Program-made: the position numbers and the translations under genes
Part shown: piece after piece, positions 669 through 6,973 of the stretch
Layout of the letters: each line of letters starts with the position of its first letter
Position numbering within the stretch: position 1 is the stretch's first letter
Notes under the pieces: generated by a model
The model's database searches: none
Told to the model about the DNA's origin: nothing
The model's input: the letters and a program-made list of their open reading frames with translations, nothing else
DNA from: an uncultured Acidobacteriota bacterium
GTDB lineage: Bacteria; Acidobacteriota; JAAYUB01
Assembly: GCA_964412195.1 (NCBI GenBank)
Contig: CAYPNP010000011.1
Coordinates: 63,881 to 127,880 of the forward strand
Length of the DNA: 64,000 nucleotides
Direction of reading: 5' to 3'

Positions 669-1388
669 CTACTGCCGCCCCCGCGAGGCCAGGAACCGGT
701 CCACCTCCGGCGGCAGGGTGCTGCGGGCGAAGAACCGCAGCTGGGTGATCTTGTCCGGCGCCGAGGCGCCGTACTTGTAGAACACGAGCAGGAATTCGGT
801 GGCGGAGACGCGGCGGTAGGACTTCAGGCTGCCCCACTCGCGCACCCAGGCCCGGTCGGCGCACTTGGCCGAGCCGGTCTCGAAGACGATCTTGTCGGCA
901 CGCAGCCACAGCGTGCCCATGCAGTTGTTGGCGTTCAGGTCCAGCTCCACGTCCAGTTTGTAGGGCAGCTCCAGCTCGCTGCCGGCGGGGCCGCCGCCCT
1001 GCGGGGCGTCGACGCGGCCCATCCGCTGCAGGATGTACTGCAGGGCGGCCTGGTTGTCCGGGCTGTCATTCTTGAATTTCAGGACGTACTTCTGCCCGTG
1101 GCCGTGCTCCTTGTCGGCGAAGAAGATGTGCAGCTCGTAGGTGTTCTTGATCTCGACCTTCTCGAGGGCGGAGTACTCCCACACCCGGCTGTCGCCGACG
1201 ACGGTCCGGGACTCGAAGATGACCTTGTCGTCGCGGACGATCAGATTGCCCTGGCACTCGCCCACGCGGTGGTTGTGCTCCACGGGGATCGTGTACAGGG
1301 TCTCGGCCAGCAGCCAGCCGCCGGCCACCGCCAGGAGCGCCAGCGCGAAGAACAGGGTCCGGGCCGTCGTGTGTCTCATGGTTGCCAT
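669..1388 (-). CDS. Secreted hypothetical protein with two internal repeats (possibly PH-like)
   Basis: GGAGGG RBS before the ATG at 1388 and a signal peptide. Repeated CxGxLxxRxDK[VI][IV]FE[ST] motif. Confidence 0.75.
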   Translation of the reverse strand: MATMRHTTARTLFFALALLAVAGGWLLAETLYTIPVEHNHRVGECQGNLIVRDDKVIFESRTVVGDSRVWEYSALEKVEIKNTYELHIFFADKEHGHGQKYVLKFKNDSPDNQAALQYILQRMGRVDAPQGGGPAGSELELPYKLDVELDLNANNCMGTLWLRADKIVFETGSAKCADRAWVREWGSLKSYRRVSATEFLLVFYKYGASAPDKITQLRFFARSTLPPEVDRFLASRGRQ

Positions 1389-1454
1389 TCCCTCCGGGAG
1401 AATTTTCACCCTAGGATAGCCCAACCAGTCGGGACCTGCAAGGTCATTCCGAGC

Positions 1455-1583: not shown

Positions 1584-2369
1584 CTACCGGTTCAGGGTGA
1601 AGTTCACCGAGACGGTGCCGATGATGGAGATGGGACGGCCGTCCACGCTCGTGGGACTGTAGACCCACTGTTCCACCGCGGTCCTGGCCGCCGCGGCCAG
1701 GATCGGATTGCCGCTCACCACCCGGACGTCGGCCACCCGGCCGGATTCGTCCACGGCCACCTGGATGATGACGACACCCTGGATGCCCGCCCGGATGGCC
1801 ATCTCGGGGTAGACCGGTTCCACCCGCCGGACCAGTTTGGACAGAAGCACCGTCGCGCTCACCGGTTTCCGGTCCCTGGGAGGTGCGGGCCGGACGGGGG
1901 GCGGGGGTGCTTCTGGTACGATGTCATTGCCATGGATCCAGGCGGCCTGGTCGATGCCGGGGACCAGCCGTCCCGGCACGCCGTATCCCCCTGGAACACC
2001 CAGCCCGCTCTCTCCGACTGGAAAGTACTCCTGCGCGGATCGATCATCCGGCGGCGGGAGGTCGTCCGGGATCACGAGCGGAGGGTGGAAGCCGCCGAGG
2101 TCGACGGGCGGACGGGGCGGCCGGGGAGTCTGCGGCCCGCCGGCGGGACCGGTCGTCGGCGGCGCCGGTACCACGATCGGCGGAGCGTACCGATTCGTCA
2201 CCTCCGTCAGGAACCGGCCCACCTCCTGCGGGATGGCGGCAGGGAACATCAGCGGGATGGACACGATCACGGCCAGCGCGGTGGCGTGAAGCAGCGCGGC
2301 CATGGGCAGGGTGCGGGACACCCGGGTGCGGGCGCAAGCGGCGGACGAGACGATCAGCTGGTCAAACAT
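1584..2369 (-). CDS. tonB: Energy transducer TonB
   Basis: N-terminal TM helix with His (ALLHATALA), Pro-rich linker, and a C-terminal PVYPEMA..GIQGVVIIQVAVDESGRV TonB_C motif. Confidence 0.9.
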   Translation of the reverse strand: MFDQLIVSSAACARTRVSRTLPMAALLHATALAVIVSIPLMFPAAIPQEVGRFLTEVTNRYAPPIVVPAPPTTGPAGGPQTPRPPRPPVDLGGFHPPLVIPDDLPPPDDRSAQEYFPVGESGLGVPGGYGVPGRLVPGIDQAAWIHGNDIVPEAPPPPVRPAPPRDRKPVSATVLLSKLVRRVEPVYPEMAIRAGIQGVVIIQVAVDESGRVADVRVVSGNPILAAAARTAVEQWVYSPTSVDGRPISIIGTVSVNFTLNR

Positions 2370-2582: not shown

Positions 2583-3902
2583 TCACTTGATCGGGACGCA
2601 GGTGCAGACCGGGACGCAGGAGCAGTACGAGTTCCCGCTGGGCCGGGGGACGGGGACCAGGATCGTTCCGGGGACGCAGTTGCAGGTGCACACGCAGCCG
2701 GCGGGGATCGGCGAGCCGCAGGGGAGGGTGTAGGTGATCGTCTGGCCGTACTGGTTGGTCCAGGTGTACTGCTGCGCCTCGCGGTTGTTGTCCAGCGTGG
2801 CTGGGTCAAACAGGTTGGTGAAGTATTCGCCGGTGCCGGCGTCCCACAGGCGGATGGTCTTGTCGTCGGCGCCGGAAGCCAGCACCCTGCCGTCCGGAGA
2901 GTACGCCAGGCAGTTGACAGCGCCTTCATGGCCGGACAGGGTCTTGACCGGCTGCCCGGTGTCGGTCGACCACAGCTTGACCAGGCGGTCCGCGCCGCCT
3001 GAGGCCACGCGCCGCCCGTCGGGGCTGCACAGGATCACGCCGACGCCGGTGCCGTGCGCCTTCCAGACCGGCCCGGGCGCGCCGTCGGGGAGGCCCCAGG
3101 TCCGGATCGTCTCGTCGGCACCGCCGGAGAACAGCCGCCGCCCGTCGGGGCTCCAGGCCACGGCATCCACCGCGGCGCCGTGACCGCGCAGGGTCTGCCG
3201 GCGGAGGCCCTGCGGGATGTCGTAGAGGCCGACGGTGCTGTCGGACGCCGCGGAGGCCAGCCATTGGCCGTCGGGGCTGAACGCCACGGCGCCGACCGGT
3301 CGCCGATGGCCGGTCAGGGTCTTGATGCGGCGGCCGGCCGCCAGGTCCCAGAGCTGGATGGCGCCGTCGTCGGTGCCGGAGGCCAGGTACTTCCCGTCGG
3401 GGCTGCAGTCGACGCAGAGTACGGTCTGGGCCCAGACGCGCAGGGTCTGGCCCAGGATCCCCTCGGGCAGCTGGCGGGACCGGATGGTCTTGTCGGCGTC
3501 ACCATAAACCGCCTCGCCACCCGGGCTGACCGTCACGCAGTGGACGGCGCTCTTGCCCGCCTGGACCTTGTGCAGCCGGCCGAGGGGCATCTCCCAGATC
3601 TTCACCGACATGTCGACGGAACCGGACACCAGGTAGGAACCGGTCCCGTTGAACGCCACGCCCTTCACCGGACCGGCGTGGGCCTGGATCGCCGCCGCCG
3701 GCTTGAGGGCCGGCGCGGCCGCCCGTACCGGCAGGCTCAAGCCGCCCAGGATCGCGGTGCCCGCCGCCGCGGCGACCAGGAAACTGCGCCGGTCCACGCT
3801 CCAGTCGAGCGGGACGTCCGACAGTTCGTACAGGCGGGGCTCGCCGGCGGACGCGTCGGCGTAGAAGTCCTGCAGCTGGAAGCGGGGCCGTCTCTCCGGC
3901 AT
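2583..3902 (-). CDS. Tat-signal WD40 beta-propeller protein (7 repeats) with Cys-rich C-terminal tail; putative radical-SAM substrate
   Basis: GGAGGG RBS, DRRSFL Tat motif, seven GH..SPDG..LASG..D..I.LWD repeats, tail LPCGSPIPAGCVCTCNCVPG..YCSCVPVCTCVPIK. Confidence 0.9.
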   Translation of the reverse strand: MPERRPRFQLQDFYADASAGEPRLYELSDVPLDWSVDRRSFLVAAAAGTAILGGLSLPVRAAAPALKPAAAIQAHAGPVKGVAFNGTGSYLVSGSVDMSVKIWEMPLGRLHKVQAGKSAVHCVTVSPGGEAVYGDADKTIRSRQLPEGILGQTLRVWAQTVLCVDCSPDGKYLASGTDDGAIQLWDLAAGRRIKTLTGHRRPVGAVAFSPDGQWLASAASDSTVGLYDIPQGLRRQTLRGHGAAVDAVAWSPDGRRLFSGGADETIRTWGLPDGAPGPVWKAHGTGVGVILCSPDGRRVASGGADRLVKLWSTDTGQPVKTLSGHEGAVNCLAYSPDGRVLASGADDKTIRLWDAGTGEYFTNLFDPATLDNNREAQQYTWTNQYGQTITYTLPCGSPIPAGCVCTCNCVPGTILVPVPRPSGNSYCSCVPVCTCVPIK

Positions 3903-3997
3903 GGTTCCCTCCCGAGGCAAGTGCTCACCCCGTTGGTAAAGGCTCTCTGATATGGTGACAGGCTATTGAACCACATCGGCGGTACGAAGGCAATGTC

Positions 3998-5497
3998 TCA
4001 CGTGAATTCAGGGCTGATTCCCGGCTCGGCCGGCCCGCCGGGGCGGCACCTGTCCTCCGTTGCCGTGGGCGCCCCGCCCCGAATCCAGGCCCTCCCTCCG
4101 TTTGCCTGGATCTCCTTGAGAACCAGGAATTTCGTCAGCTCCTGGTTCACCCGGCAGCGGAGCGGCAGTTCCCCGGCAGGGAGGCGGCGCTGTCGTTCGC
4201 CCTCCTTGACGGCGCAGTCCCCGGCGCAGTGCCACCGGCAGAAGCAGCCGTCGCAGGCGCGCGCCTGCAGCACCGAGCGCCGGCGGTGGCGGCGGGCGGC
4301 CGCCGGATCGAGGCGGAAATCCCCCGCCCCGTCCCACCGGCCGACCAGGAAGGCGCGGCTGAGGGGGTGCCGCCGCCCGTACACCTCGAAGCAGGCGCTG
4401 ACGTCGCCGGCGGGCGTCACCACCAGCGCCCGGCACGGCGCCAGGCAGAACCGCCGGGTCAGCAGCTCCGGCCGGGCGCCGGAGTAGAACAGCCGGATGC
4501 CGCGGGCGGCCGCGACGTCCCGCGCCGCGGCGAACTGGCGCAGGAACTCGTCCGGCTCGTCCAGCGCCGCGGGGGAGCGGCGGGCGCGGCCGGTGGCGAA
4601 GGCGGGCTCCGCCTGGATGGTGTGCGGCCGGAAGCGGGCGGCGATGTGGGCCACGCTTTCCGCGAGCGAGGCCACGCTGCCGCGCGTGACCGTCAGCCGG
4701 ACGCCGTAGCGGAATCCGGCCGCGTCCAGGGCTTCCAGCGTCCGGGCGGCGCGGCGGTAGGAGCCGCGGCCGCCGGCGCCCGGCCGCTGGGCGTCCTGCA
4801 CGGCCGGCGTCCCGTCGAAGGAGATGCTCAGCTCGGTGAAGTTCCGGAGGATGTAGTCCCGCACCCGGGCGGTCCAGCAGCCGTTGAAGGCGCCGGTCAC
4901 CTGGAGCGGGACGCCGAGGCGGTCCGCGCCGGCTCGGGCGCGGGCCACGGCGCGGGTGAGCACCGGCCAGTTCAGGCTGGGCTCGCCCCCGCCGTGGAAG
5001 GCCAGGGTCATCCCCGGCCGGCCGTGGCGGACCACGTCGGCCAGCACCCGGTCCACCGCCGCCCGGGCGAGGGGCCAGGGCATGTCCTCGGCCGGCAGCT
5101 CGCCCCCGTCGGCGTAGCAGTAGACGCAGCGGAGGTTGCAGCGGTTGGTGAGGAAGAGCACGGCGGTGTCGTAGCCGCCCGCGGCCGCGGCCGGGTCGTC
5201 CGGCGGGGGCGCCGCCTCCCGGAAGAGCCCCAGCCGCTCCAGGCCGGCCAGCAGGGAAGCCGGATCCTCTTCACGGGCCTCCCCTCCCGCGGTGGCCGCC
5301 CGTCCATTCATCGCCTGCTCCGGCGCCTCGGCCCGGCGGCGGACCTGCTCCACCAGCGCGCCGTTGGCGACGAAGGCGATGCCGTGGAGCGGCGCGTACA
5401 CGAGGTACCGGTCCGCGCCGGCCGGCACGGCGAAGATCTGCTCCGGCAGGCGGAAGCGACGGGACGGCGGGAATTCAGCGACGGGAAGGTCGGGCAT
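3998..5497 (-). CDS. Radical SAM/SPASM-domain protein, putative peptide/protein maturase
   Basis: CNLRCVYC (CX3CX2C), FHGGGEP, SPASM cysteines FCLAPC..GDVSACF and CDGCFCRWHCAGDC..RC, and an RRE-like N-terminal extension. Start is at 5497 or 5506. Confidence 0.92.
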   Translation of the reverse strand: MPDLPVAEFPPSRRFRLPEQIFAVPAGADRYLVYAPLHGIAFVANGALVEQVRRRAEAPEQAMNGRAATAGGEAREEDPASLLAGLERLGLFREAAPPPDDPAAAAGGYDTAVLFLTNRCNLRCVYCYADGGELPAEDMPWPLARAAVDRVLADVVRHGRPGMTLAFHGGGEPSLNWPVLTRAVARARAGADRLGVPLQVTGAFNGCWTARVRDYILRNFTELSISFDGTPAVQDAQRPGAGGRGSYRRAARTLEALDAAGFRYGVRLTVTRGSVASLAESVAHIAARFRPHTIQAEPAFATGRARRSPAALDEPDEFLRQFAAARDVAAARGIRLFYSGARPELLTRRFCLAPCRALVVTPAGDVSACFEVYGRRHPLSRAFLVGRWDGAGDFRLDPAAARRHRRRSVLQARACDGCFCRWHCAGDCAVKEGERQRRLPAGELPLRCRVNQELTKFLVLKEIQANGGRAWIRGGAPTATEDRCRPGGPAEPGISPEFT

Positions 5498-5641
5498 GGG
5501 CTCCATCCGGATTGTCGGTCGCCTGATTGTAGCCGATCACGCCGCGCTTTCCAAGTTCCGGTCCATTCGGCTATAATTCCGACGATCCGGCGGCCGCCCC
5601 GCCGCCGTGGCCCGGCGTCGGACACTCACGGGAGGTGGCCC

Positions 5642-6139: not shown

Positions 6140-6260
6140 GGGAATTCACCACAGAGGCACGGAGGACACAGAGGGGAATTCAGGGTTCCGATCCGCAATC
6201 CGCAATCCGAAAACCGCAATCTGCCGATTCACCCATTCACCTATTCACCCATTCACCCAT
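6140..6260. repeat. Composite oligomer array (CACAGAG, ATCCGCA, ATTCACCC modules)
   Basis: Three unit families in series between convergent genes. The last module contains the stop codon of the methyltransferase. Confidence 0.8.
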
Positions 6261-6973
6261 GCCAGGCACGCCAGGTACCCCCACGCCGGCTCGTCTACCA
6301 CGACCTCGCAGGACCAGCCGGCCCGGGCGGCCCGCTCGGCGAGGGTTTCCGGGTCGACGTGGAGCCAGCCGCAGTACGGCCCGCTCTGGCCCGCAAACTC
6401 GAGCTGGATGCGGATCTCGCCGACGTAGCGGCCGGCCTTCCGGTTGGCCTCGTGGTAGGCCAGGTGGCGCGGATCGTCGGTGTGCCGCACGTCCGTCGAA
6501 TCCAGCAGCAGCCGCCCGCCCGGAGCCAGCAGCCGCCGGGCCCGGTCGAGGAAGCGGTCCAGCCCGGCCAGGGTACCGGCAATCCCGACGCCATGGCCCA
6601 GCATCAGCAGGGTGTCGAACGGCCTCTCCTGGAACTGGAAGATGTCCGCGCAGCGGGCATCGCGGACGCTCCGAGCGGTCATGACCGCCACGGCCTCCGG
6701 GCTGATCTCGAGGGCGGTCACGGACAATCCCCGCTCCTGCAGGGCCAGCGTGTGCAGCCCGCTGCCGGCGCCGATGTCCAGCACGCGCCCACGGCATCTC
6801 TCCAGCGCGGCGTTCTCGAGGGGCGTGAACTCCGCCGGCGCCCGGAAAAAGTGGCCCACCGGCAGCGCGTATTCGACGCCGTCATCCCGCCGGACCGTCA
6901 ACCGCGCTTCCCTGTTGCCCTCAAAGTATGCCTTCAGCGCCAGCCCCTGCGGCGACATCGCTTGCGGTTCCAT
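6245..6973 (-). CDS. Class I SAM-dependent methyltransferase
   Basis: Motif I VLDIGAGSG; LEISP; FDTLLMLG. Confidence 0.9.
   Translation of the reverse strand: MEPQAMSPQGLALKAYFEGNREARLTVRRDDGVEYALPVGHFFRAPAEFTPLENAALERCRGRVLDIGAGSGLHTLALQERGLSVTALEISPEAVAVMTARSVRDARCADIFQFQERPFDTLLMLGHGVGIAGTLAGLDRFLDRARRLLAPGGRLLLDSTDVRHTDDPRHLAYHEANRKAGRYVGEIRIQLEFAGQSGPYCGWLHVDPETLAERAARAGWSCEVVVDEPAWGYLACLAWVNG

What the first reader, a model, noticed from the sequence alone, without database searches (positions are those of the whole stretch)
3770..3902. 37-residue extension ahead of the twin-arginine motif may double as a RiPP leader
Seen in sequence: MPERRPRFQLQDFYADASAGEPRLYELSDVPLDWSVD precedes RRSFL, with a good RBS at this start and no alternative ATG near the RR motif. 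Established: RREs bind short hydrophobic/acidic leader motifs, and some Tat substrates use signal-peptide extensions for chaperone proofreading. Inference: this segment docks on the enzyme's RRE, holding the protein until the far C-terminal core is modified. Leader and core would then be separated by a whole folded domain.
Basis: inference. Interest (0 to 1): 0.62.

Follow-up and report, generated by a model that had tools for sequence, protein, structure and literature searches.

The report
Conserved leader ahead of Tat signal
The 37 residues in front of the twin-arginine export signal are a real, ancient, conserved module that travels with one radical SAM enzyme, so they most likely recruit that enzyme to modify the protein's cysteine-rich tail before export, though binding is not yet shown.

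Summary
It lies on the minus strand: ATG at 3902, a GGGAGGG ribosome-binding site 4 nt upstream, 37 residues, then RRSFL.

The extension is translated and conserved. Relatives at 89% and 68% enzyme identity keep it with mostly synonymous changes. Neighbours of orthologous radical SAM genes in many bacterial phyla and in Methanosarcina and Methanoperedens carry the same co-linear module: P6, F8-x-L10, D16-G17, E-E-P22-x-[ILV]-[YVH]-x-[LIV], W34. RR falls at residue 35-40 in most, with the mode at 38.

A 46-column profile of the module finds 194 protein clusters among 1.84 billion, nearly always at residues 1-47. These proteins range from 93 to 1451 aa. Among 401 genomes of the phylum, all 9 genomes with a confident module hit are among the 10 that have the enzyme.

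The enzyme resembles CteB over its full length. It has an N-terminal three-strand/helix domain of the RiPP-recognition type, with near-invariant residues in strands 2-3.

So the leader reading has good comparative support. Binding itself is not shown: an AlphaFold run on a natural read-through fusion did not dock the leader. The "export hold" idea remains speculation.

This is a new variant of a known kind: a leader fused upstream of a Tat signal, probably removed by signal peptidase.

The parts
3907..3913 (-). Shine-Dalgarno GGGAGGG, 4 nt before the ATG
   Evidence: Read. The same GGGAGG is found before the ATG in the 89% and 68% relatives.
3792..3902 (-). 37-residue pre-RR extension (residues 1-37), the conserved leader-like module
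3852..3887 (-). Part A (residues 6-17, PRFQLQDFYADA; family consensus P-x-F-x-L-x-R-V-Y-x-D-G)
   Evidence: Among 135 profile-retrieved leaders: P6 113/134, F8 108/133, L10 110/132, D16 114/135, G17 117/135. The window has A at position 17.
3822..3845 (-). Part B (residues 20-27, GEPRLYEL; consensus E-E-P-x-[ILV]-[YVH]-x-[LIV])
   Evidence: P22 is 124/135 and is among the >=90% conserved columns of the full-length alignment. In the enzyme-anchored set its information content is 2.72 bits, against 2.67 for the Cys core.
3795..3797 (-). In-frame GTG (Val36), a rejected alternative start
   Evidence: It is CTG in L094, and the upstream sequence is conserved as protein.
3720..3791 (-). Twin-arginine signal: RRSFL, an Ala/Gly-rich h-region, and VRA|A as the likely signal peptidase I site (residues 38-61)
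   Evidence: R38 is invariant; R39 and F41 are >=90% conserved. AlphaFold predicts a helix at 38-54. Pfam TAT_signal gives a weak hit at E=0.0048. TatC is present in the genome.
2814..3668 (-). Seven-bladed WD40 propeller (residues 79-363) with velcro closure
   Evidence: Pfam WD40 E=2e-68. AlphaFold pLDDT 95-98, with 28 strands arranged 1+24+3.
2721..2780 (-). Conserved beta-hairpin before the core (residues 375-394)
   Evidence: (pLDDT 83-89).
2586..2717 (-). Cys-rich C-terminal core (residues 396-439), the presumed site of modification
Evidence: C405, C407, C427, C429, C433 and C435 are >=90% conserved.
3998..5506 (-). Radical SAM/SPASM maturase, CteB-like
   Evidence: CteB E=4e-38; TM 0.75-0.77 over about the whole CteB chain, using the 89% relative.
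5171..5506 (-). N-terminal RRE-like domain of the maturase (about residues 1-112)
   Evidence: The AlphaFold model of the 89% relative shows three strands then helices at pLDDT 89-97. P25, Y34, P36, L37, A41, F42 and N45 (relative's numbering; add 3 for the window) are >=90% conserved in 105 sequences.

Best explanation
Residues 1-37 are a conserved N-terminal recognition (leader) module, probably a small beta-hairpin made of part A and part B around a D-G turn. They are fused directly upstream of a Tat signal peptide. The proposed sequence of events is as follows. In the cytoplasm the module recruits the adjacent CteB-like radical SAM/SPASM enzyme, most likely through that enzyme's N-terminal RRE-like domain. 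Because the propeller closes velcro-style, its two ends lie side by side, so a leader-bound enzyme can reach the Cys-rich C-terminal tail and cross-link it. The folded, modified protein then leaves by the Tat pathway. Signal peptidase (type I here, type II in the many lipobox-bearing relatives) removes leader and signal together, which would explain why the two-gene cassette has no leader protease or exporter. Shown here: the segment is translated, it is conserved, its position and spacing are fixed, it co-occurs and is adjacent with the enzyme, it is independent of the passenger domain, and the enzyme has RRE-like topology. Inferred: binding to the RRE, the order of events, and removal by signal peptidase.
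For: (1) Translation and selection. The SD and ATG are conserved. Codon changes against the 89% relative are 5 synonymous and 2 non-synonymous. GC3 is 0.95.

(2) Enzyme-anchored sampling, which is unbiased with respect to the leader. 19 of 27 orthologous rSAM loci have a neighbour with the co-linear module and RR at residue 29-43 (37-43 in 17 of the 19 loci). These come from Acidobacteriota, Betaproteobacteria, Armatimonadota, Cyanobacteria, Bacteroidales, Chloroflexota, Bacillota, Methanosarcina and Methanoperedens.

(3) The profile search found 194 clusters. In 143 of the 150 listed there is a strict RR, most often at residue 38, and the matches lie at residues 1-47 in nearly all.

(4) The module occurs on a 93-aa, a 115-aa and a 138-aa precursor without WD40, and on a 1451-aa protein. 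Each is directly downstream of an rSAM gene.

(5) Phyletic pattern. In 401 genomes of the phylum, 10 have the enzyme. All 9 genomes with a leader hit at E<=1e-4 are among those 10, and 8 of the 9 have the hit on the same contig as the enzyme gene: 7 next to it and 1 about 4.5 kb away.

(6) P22 is one of only 17 columns that are >=90% conserved in 65 full-length substrates, alongside RR, F41 and the core cysteines.

(7) The enzyme matches CteB over its full length. Its N-domain has strand-strand-strand-helix topology with near-invariant strand 2-3 residues.

(8) With a deep alignment, AlphaFold gives the extension pLDDT up to 75, with beta-bridges at 9-10, 13, 19 and 23-24.

(9) Published analogue. 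CrpA, a 28.8 kDa protein, needs its N-terminal residues and the CrpC RRE for full processing (PMC13692751).
Against: AlphaFold2 on a natural read-through fusion of the 89% relative (enzyme, 52-residue linker, leader and signal) left the leader at pLDDT about 30, with no strand. The leader rows of that alignment were only 2 deep, so this is weak negative evidence. Pfam finds no PqqD/RRE signature in any of 105 enzymes; the RRE call therefore rests on predicted fold. Four Tat-less short precursors next to orthologous enzymes match an independent 31-column leader profile only marginally (E=0.01 and 0.058) or not at all. There are exceptions to co-occurrence. One genome has a substrate but no enzyme orthologue. 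One has its only hit, an apparently truncated 76-aa module gene, on another contig. One locus has an IS element where the enzyme would be. One enzyme-positive genome has no leader hit. In the Crp system, removing the leader or the RRE reduced processing but did not abolish it.
Confidence: 0.6

Rival explanations
1. The extension is an export-control element only. It would be an unusually long Tat n-region bound by TatBC or by a general or unlinked proofreading chaperone, in the way REMPs bind TorA, DmsA or NapA signals. It would have no role in recruiting the radical SAM enzyme.
For: It sits at a fixed distance from RR, with almost no indels between P6 and R38 in 135 sequences. W34 and M36 just before RR are conserved only in the Tat-bearing versions. 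AlphaFold did not dock it on the enzyme.
Against: No TorD-, NapD- or DmsD-like gene, nor any other third gene, is conserved in the neighbourhoods. The module tracks the rSAM gene, not Tat: only 9-12 of 401 genomes of the phylum carry the module, and TatC rang in 11 of 14 control genomes. Parts A and B persist where RR is lost (TRHEFL, SRKDFI, SRNFL), and weakly in Tat-less peptides.
Confidence: 0.15
2. The extension acts within the substrate itself. It would be a hairpin that packs on the propeller or on the Cys-rich tail, as an intramolecular chaperone or cap, rather than binding the enzyme.
For: In the monomer model the extension reaches pLDDT 65-75 and forms beta-bridges, and the tail also shows isolated bridges at 404-405, 410-411 and 414. 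No coordinates were available to identify the partners.
Against: The same module sits on precursors with no propeller, and on tails of very different length and pattern. The bridge pattern 9-10/23-24 and 13/19 is what a self-contained hairpin would give.
Confidence: 0.1
3. The signal is not cleaved. The h-region would be a membrane anchor and the 37 residues a permanent cytoplasmic tail with a role after export, such as anchoring or signalling.
For: The window protein has no lipobox. Its VRA|A site is predicted from the motif only.
Against: 42 of the 150 listed profile hits have a lipobox-like motif ending in Cys within 45 residues after RR, which implies cleavage by signal peptidase II and loss of the extension. 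The h-region is Ala/Gly-rich and short, typical of Tat signals rather than anchors.
Confidence: 0.08
4. The start codon is over-called. Translation would begin at GTG codon 36, giving an ordinary MDRRSFL Tat signal.
For: An in-frame GTG lies two codons before RR.
Against: The upstream 35 codons are conserved as protein across two domains of life. Codon 36 is CTG in the 68% relative. The strong SD is at the ATG. Changes against the 89% relative are mostly synonymous.
Confidence: 0.02

Closest known systems
CteB/CteA, the Clostridium thermocellum thioether-forming rSAM/SPASM maturase with an N-terminal RRE (PDB 5WGG, 5WHY)
   Same: It is the best sequence match among solved structures (E=4e-38). 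It is also the best fold match (TM 0.75-0.77 over essentially the whole chain). Both have the layout RRE, radical SAM core, SPASM. Both act on a Cys-containing core.
   Different: CteA is a short cytoplasmic peptide with an ordinary leader. Here the substrate is a 439-aa exported propeller, and the leader is fused to a Tat signal. The enzyme reaches no curated NCBIfam cut-off.
CrpA/CrpC of Methanococcus voltae (PMC13692751, 2026)
   Same: An RRE-bearing rSAM/SPASM enzyme cross-links Cys motifs in the C-terminal part of a full-size protein. The conserved N-terminal residues of that protein act like a leader, and truncating them lowers processing.
   Different: It is a different enzyme family: TIGR04463 scores 32.8 bits against a cut-off of 525. 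The parts of the paper I read mention no signal peptide or export step for CrpA. The passenger and the Cys motif are different.
Signal-peptide-bearing RiPP precursors: bufferins (PMC11626156) and the MNIO lipoprotein RiPPs DybA and MelA1 (PMC13056109)
   Same: The precursor is modified in the cytoplasm and then sent through a general secretion or lipoprotein pathway. Signal peptidase replaces a dedicated leader protease. Some precursors are 30-40 kDa proteins modified at the C-terminus.
   Different: Those use Sec-type signals (SPI or SPII) and MNIO enzymes, and the authors describe such pathways as leader-independent or follower-dependent. Here a separate, conserved leader module sits in front of a twin-arginine signal, and the enzyme is a radical SAM.
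Tat proofreading chaperones (REMPs: TorD, DmsD, NapD) that bind Tat signal peptides. This comparison rests on my own knowledge of the field.
   Same: A cytoplasmic protein binds the N-terminal signal region of a Tat substrate until maturation is complete. Long, conserved n-regions occur in such substrates.
   Different: No REMP-family gene is linked here. The proposed binder would be the modifying enzyme itself. No evidence for a hold on export was obtained.
QhpC/QhpD of quinohemoprotein amine dehydrogenase (named in PMC13692751; details from my own knowledge)
   Same: An rSAM/SPASM enzyme forms thioethers in a protein subunit that carries an N-terminal leader and ends up in the periplasm. The QhpD model is a weak hit that includes the N-terminal region (residues 50-431, E=8e-22).
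   Different: The score is far below the cut-off (77 against 453 bits). The QhpC leader is removed by a dedicated protease, QhpE, and QhpC has no Tat motif of its own.

Membership tests
RiPP-type leader recognised by an RRE | The N-terminal segment is conserved among precursors of one maturase family, independently of the core or passenger | tested here: met
   The same module occurs on proteins of 93 to 1451 aa.
RiPP-type leader recognised by an RRE | The cognate enzyme carries an RRE (winged helix-turn-helix: three strands plus three helices) | tested here: met
   Met at the level of predicted fold only. The model has strands 22-27, 30-35 and 40-44, then helices, at pLDDT 89-97. It aligns with RRE-bearing CteB over the full length. 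There is no Pfam PqqD hit in 105 members.
RiPP-type leader recognised by an RRE | Physical binding of the leader to the RRE | tested here: inconclusive
   The AlphaFold2 read-through fusion left the leader at pLDDT about 30. The leader alignment was only 2 rows deep. No multimer tool was available.
RiPP-type leader recognised by an RRE | The leader is required for modification and absent from the mature product | not testable with these tools
   Removal is inferred from the VRA|A site and from lipoboxes in relatives.
Twin-arginine (Tat) signal peptide | An [ST]-R-R-x-F-L-K-like motif, followed by a moderately hydrophobic h-region and an A-x-A site | tested here: met
   The sequence is DRRSFLVAAAAGTAILGGLSLPVRA|A. 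R38 is invariant; R39 and F41 are >=90% conserved. Pfam TAT_signal gives only E=0.0048.
Twin-arginine (Tat) signal peptide | Tat machinery is present in the genome | tested here: met
   TatC scores 219.8 bits, above the cut-off.
Twin-arginine (Tat) signal peptide | A short n-region, typically under about 20 residues before RR | tested here: not met
   There are 37 residues before RR, and this length is conserved (mode 38 for the first R).
REMP-type Tat proofreading system | A dedicated TorD-, DmsD- or NapD-family chaperone gene linked to the substrate | tested here: not met
   The neighbours are a TonB-like protein, an unknown secreted protein and a methyltransferase. No such gene is seen in the related loci.
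Curated rSAM/SPASM maturase families (nif11, PapB, QhpD, SCIFF, TIGR04463 and others) | A score above the NCBIfam curated cut-off | tested here: not met
   The best score is 88.4 bits, against a cut-off of 518.7. All 57 hits fall below their cut-offs.

The most novel reading that the evidence does not exclude
The module and the Tat motif form one bifunctional unit. While the maturase's RRE holds the hairpin, which ends about 10 residues before RR, the twin-arginine motif is hidden from TatBC. Export then becomes conditional on completion of the C-terminal cross-links. The modifying enzyme would double as the Tat proofreading chaperone, and signal peptidase as the leader protease.
Probability: 0.25. 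Interest if true: 0.8.

Novelty: new variant of a known kind. Interest (0 to 1): 0.66.

Why it matters
Leader peptides and export signals are normally treated as separate solutions, and recent work describes signal-bearing RiPP precursors as leader-independent. Here a conserved leader of about 37 residues sits at a fixed distance in front of a Tat signal. It occurs in several hundred protein clusters from Bacteria and Archaea, on cargo from 93-aa peptides to 1451-aa proteins. If it recruits the radical SAM enzyme, three things follow. It gives a simple sequence handle for finding protein-sized RiPP-like substrates. It explains how a two-gene cassette can do without a protease and an exporter. 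And it offers a tractable system for asking whether a modifying enzyme can gate Tat export.

Tried and rejected
- **Word-based search of residues 1-80.** It found only the protein itself. The module is too diverged for shared 5-mers, so I went through the enzyme instead.
- **GTG at codon 36 as the true start.** Rejected.
- **Deep leader alignment for the fusion prediction.** Five MAFFT attempts (A3, A4, A5, A7, A8) either scattered the leader rows over the enzyme or broke the enzyme alignment. The run therefore used A6, with 2 leader rows, and its negative result is weak.
- **A read-through fusion of the window's own two genes.** Not possible, because the genes are in different frames (95-nt spacer). 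The 89% relative L093 has them in the same frame, separated by TAA and TGA, and was used instead.
- **Sequence-level support for domain and signal.** There is no Pfam PqqD hit in 105 enzymes. No TIGR01409 hit was listed at E<=0.01.
- **Full-text searches.** Queries combining radical SAM or RiPP terms with twin-arginine, WD40 or beta-propeller found no description of this pairing.
- **Search for a third conserved gene** (protease, chaperone or exporter). None was found. TonB-like genes are linked only in the closest relatives.
- **Tat-less short precursors as a clean proof that the motif is independent of Tat.** Support is only marginal.

Full report
**What is there**

The finding lies on the minus strand. 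The gene runs 3902 to 2583 and encodes 439 aa. The ATG at 3902 is preceded by GGGAGGG (3913-3907) with a 4-nt spacer.

- Residues 38-61 form a twin-arginine signal: RRSFL, then an Ala/Gly-rich stretch, then VRA|A.
- Seven WD40 repeats follow (Pfam E=2e-68).
- The protein ends in a Cys-rich tail.
- 95 nt upstream on the same strand is a 502-aa radical SAM/SPASM gene (3998-5506).
- That enzyme scores below the cut-off of every curated maturase family.
- TatC is present elsewhere in the genome.

**Is the extension translated?**

Yes, on three grounds.

- In the relative whose enzyme is 89% identical (L093), codons 1-37 differ by 5 synonymous and 2 non-synonymous changes.
- In the 68% relative (L094), the segment reads MSDQRPRFQLQDVYQDGPPGEPQLYELKDVQLEWSLDRRGFL, and codon 36 is CTG.
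- The GGGAGG before the ATG is kept in both relatives, and GC3 of the extension (0.95) equals that of the gene (0.94).

**Is it conserved more widely?**

I sampled through the enzyme, not through the leader, to avoid circularity. Orthologous rSAM genes came from three sources: the phylum, one genome per species across GTDB, and the large protein collection.

In 19 of 27 such loci a neighbouring gene starts with a co-linear module. Some examples:

| Source | N-terminal sequence |
|---|---|
| Methanosarcina | MSKFEIPDFKLQRIYSDGSKEEPVLYELKDLDANWKMGRRQFL |
| Methanoperedens (two tandem paralogues) | similar module |
| Armatimonadota | MNELLPRFELTSVYEDGEIGRPELIDLSEIGDDFQLSRRNF |
| Bacillota (138-aa lipoprotein) | MKRNDNFKLSKIDSKDEEPRIHKIEALNKHVLFNSRNFL |

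The first R falls at residue 37-43 in 17 of the 19 loci and at 29-33 in the other two. FQLQDF is part A (P-x-F-x-L-x-R-V-Y-x-D-G). RLYEL is part B (E-E-P-x-[ILV]-[YVH]-x-[LIV]).

**How large is the family?**

- A 46-column profile of 20 leaders, searched against 1.84 billion representative proteins, gave 194 hits at E<=1e-3 and 12 at E<=1e-10.
- The match lies at residues 1-47 in nearly all.
- Of the 150 listed, 143 have a strict RR. The first R lies at residue 35-40 in most, with the mode at 38.
- 42 have a lipobox-like motif ending in Cys after the h-region.
- 84 end in a Cys-rich tail. Most of the rest are fragments, or carry an extra C-terminal domain after the Cys block.
- Lengths run from a complete 93-aa precursor to 1451 aa.

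**Relative conservation**

In 65 full-length substrates only 17 columns are >=90% conserved. They include P22, R38, R39, F41 and the core cysteines.

In that leader-selected set the extension averages 1.94 bits per column, against 1.57 for the propeller and 1.27 for the rest of the signal. That set is biased towards leader conservation.

In the enzyme-anchored set (n=15) the values are:

| Region | Bits per column |
|---|---|
| Extension (whole) | 2.14 |
| Part B | 2.72 |
| Propeller | 2.32 |
| h/c region of the signal | 1.85 |
| Cys core | 2.67 |

So the extension is about as conserved as the folded domain, and part B is as conserved as the Cys core.

**Link to the enzyme**

- Among 61 related genomes, the leader profile hit exactly the 5 that have the enzyme orthologue, plus one orphan.
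- Among 401 genomes of the phylum, 10 have the enzyme.
- All 9 genomes with a leader hit at E<=1e-4 are among those 10. In 8 of the 9 the hit is on the same contig as the enzyme gene: next to it in 7, and about 4.5 kb away in 1.
- Proteins found through the leader alone also sit directly after an rSAM gene. This holds for the 1451-aa protein, the 93-aa precursor and the 115-aa precursor.

Exceptions exist:

- One genome, 91% complete, has a genuine substrate but no enzyme orthologue.
- One genome's only module hit, an apparently truncated 76-aa gene, lies on a different contig from the enzyme gene.
- One locus has an IS fragment where the enzyme gene would be.
- One enzyme-positive genome has no leader hit.

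No third gene is conserved in these neighbourhoods, whether protease, chaperone or exporter.

**Independence from Tat**

- Parts A and B persist where the RR pair is lost: TRHEFL followed by a Cys-containing (AVGC) lipobox-like motif, SRKDFI with a lipobox, and SRNFL with a lipobox.
- Four orthologous loci encode short Cys-rich peptides with no signal.
- Against an independent 31-column profile built only from Tat-bearing leaders, two of these peptides rank second and third among 983 ORFs (E=0.01 and 0.058). The other two are not detected.
- This support is suggestive only.

**The enzyme**

- A profile of the family finds CteB as the best solved relative (E=4e-38).
- AlphaFold2 models the 89% relative at pLDDT above 90 over most of the enzyme.
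- The model has an N-terminal strand-strand-strand-helix unit: strands 22-27, 30-35 and 40-44, then helices 46-57, 82-88 and 102-106.
- Foldseek aligns the model to RRE-bearing CteB over 462-472 columns of a 418-440-residue chain, at TM 0.75-0.77.
- Seven positions in strands 1-3 and the start of helix 1 are >=90% conserved across 105 enzymes. This fits a conserved ligand on that face.
- Pfam does not detect a PqqD signature.

**Direct test of docking**

No multimer tool was available, and the window's two genes are out of frame. In L093 they are in frame, separated only by TAA and TGA. I therefore predicted the read-through chain: enzyme, 52-residue linker, then leader and signal.

The leader stayed at pLDDT about 30, with no strand. 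MAFFT would not align other leaders to this chain, so the leader had only two nearly identical rows. I count this as weak evidence against docking.

**The substrate alone**

With a 65-row alignment, AlphaFold gives the following:

- A 28-strand propeller at pLDDT 95-98. Its first strand (79-84) completes the last blade, so the N- and C-terminal ends leave the same blade.
- A conserved hairpin at 375-394.
- A tail that falls from pLDDT 78 to 52.
- An extension at pLDDT 50-75, with beta-bridges at 9-10, 13, 19 and 23-24.

That bridge pattern is what a hairpin of part A and part B around the conserved D16-G17 turn would give. So leader and core are far apart in sequence but probably close in space.

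**Comparison with the literature**

- The nearest published case is CrpA/CrpC. There, a different RRE-bearing rSAM family cross-links a 28.8 kDa protein whose N-terminal residues contribute to processing, and deleting them reduces but does not abolish it (PMC13692751).
- Signal-peptide-bearing RiPP precursors are known for MNIO enzymes (bufferins, DybA, MelA1). They use Sec-type signals and are described as leader-independent or follower-dependent (PMC11626156, PMC13056109).
- I found no paper joining an RRE-type leader to a twin-arginine signal, or describing this enzyme/propeller pair.

**Verdict**

The support is comparative rather than physical. The export-hold refinement is untested, at about 0.25. 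I rate the finding as a new variant of a known kind.

Noticed in passing
window 1584-2369 (-) and 669-1424 (-); L094 162-959: A TonB C-terminal-domain gene and an unknown secreted two-repeat protein follow the propeller gene. In the 68% relative a TonB_C gene sits just upstream of the rSAM gene instead. The linkage is seen only in close relatives.
   Followed up: partly
L098 4976-6352 and 6683-8122 (Methanoperedens): Two tandem substrate paralogues with nearly identical leaders follow a single rSAM gene. L101 also shows two substrate genes in a row.
   Followed up: no
L101 3-1193 and 1180-3087; P0191, P0192, P0197, P0198, P0204, P0205 and others: A sub-family of 600-1450 aa has part B as P-x-I-V-P-V. 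Its Cys block is internal and is followed by an extra helical C-terminal domain of about 130 aa, ending in motifs such as HWKK or PWYVR.
   Followed up: partly
L007 2735-3277, L008 and L010 (G004:C111); L026; L116: Some loci carry two or three further rSAM/SPASM genes. One also has a small PqqD-like ORF that itself begins with an RRRFL motif. These are more complex clusters than the two-gene cassette in the window.
   Followed up: no
L109 1441-2853 (G022:C261): An orphan substrate of the short-leader type (KPEVYAVKR..GRRRFL, tail ending HIYFYPN) lies in a 91%-complete genome in which no enzyme orthologue was found.
   Followed up: partly
L118 (G219:C4), P0149: A 76-aa ORF consists of leader plus signal and then stops. 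It lies on a different contig from the genome's rSAM orthologue. It may be a truncated gene or a frameshift.
   Followed up: no
L019, L022, L016; P0220, P0231, P0248, P0269, P0270: A short-leader group (part B only: EEP-E-[IV]-[YF]-A-[VI]-K, then W/F-x-F-S-R-R-D-F-L) ends in a conserved H-Y-W-[YH]-P-[ND] C-terminus after the CxC repeats.
   Followed up: no
window 6245-6973 (-): A SAM-dependent methyltransferase gives a weak hit to the daptide-type RiPP methyltransferase model (E=2e-12, below cut-off). It lies upstream on the same strand, but a plus-strand ORF separates it from the rSAM gene.
   Followed up: no
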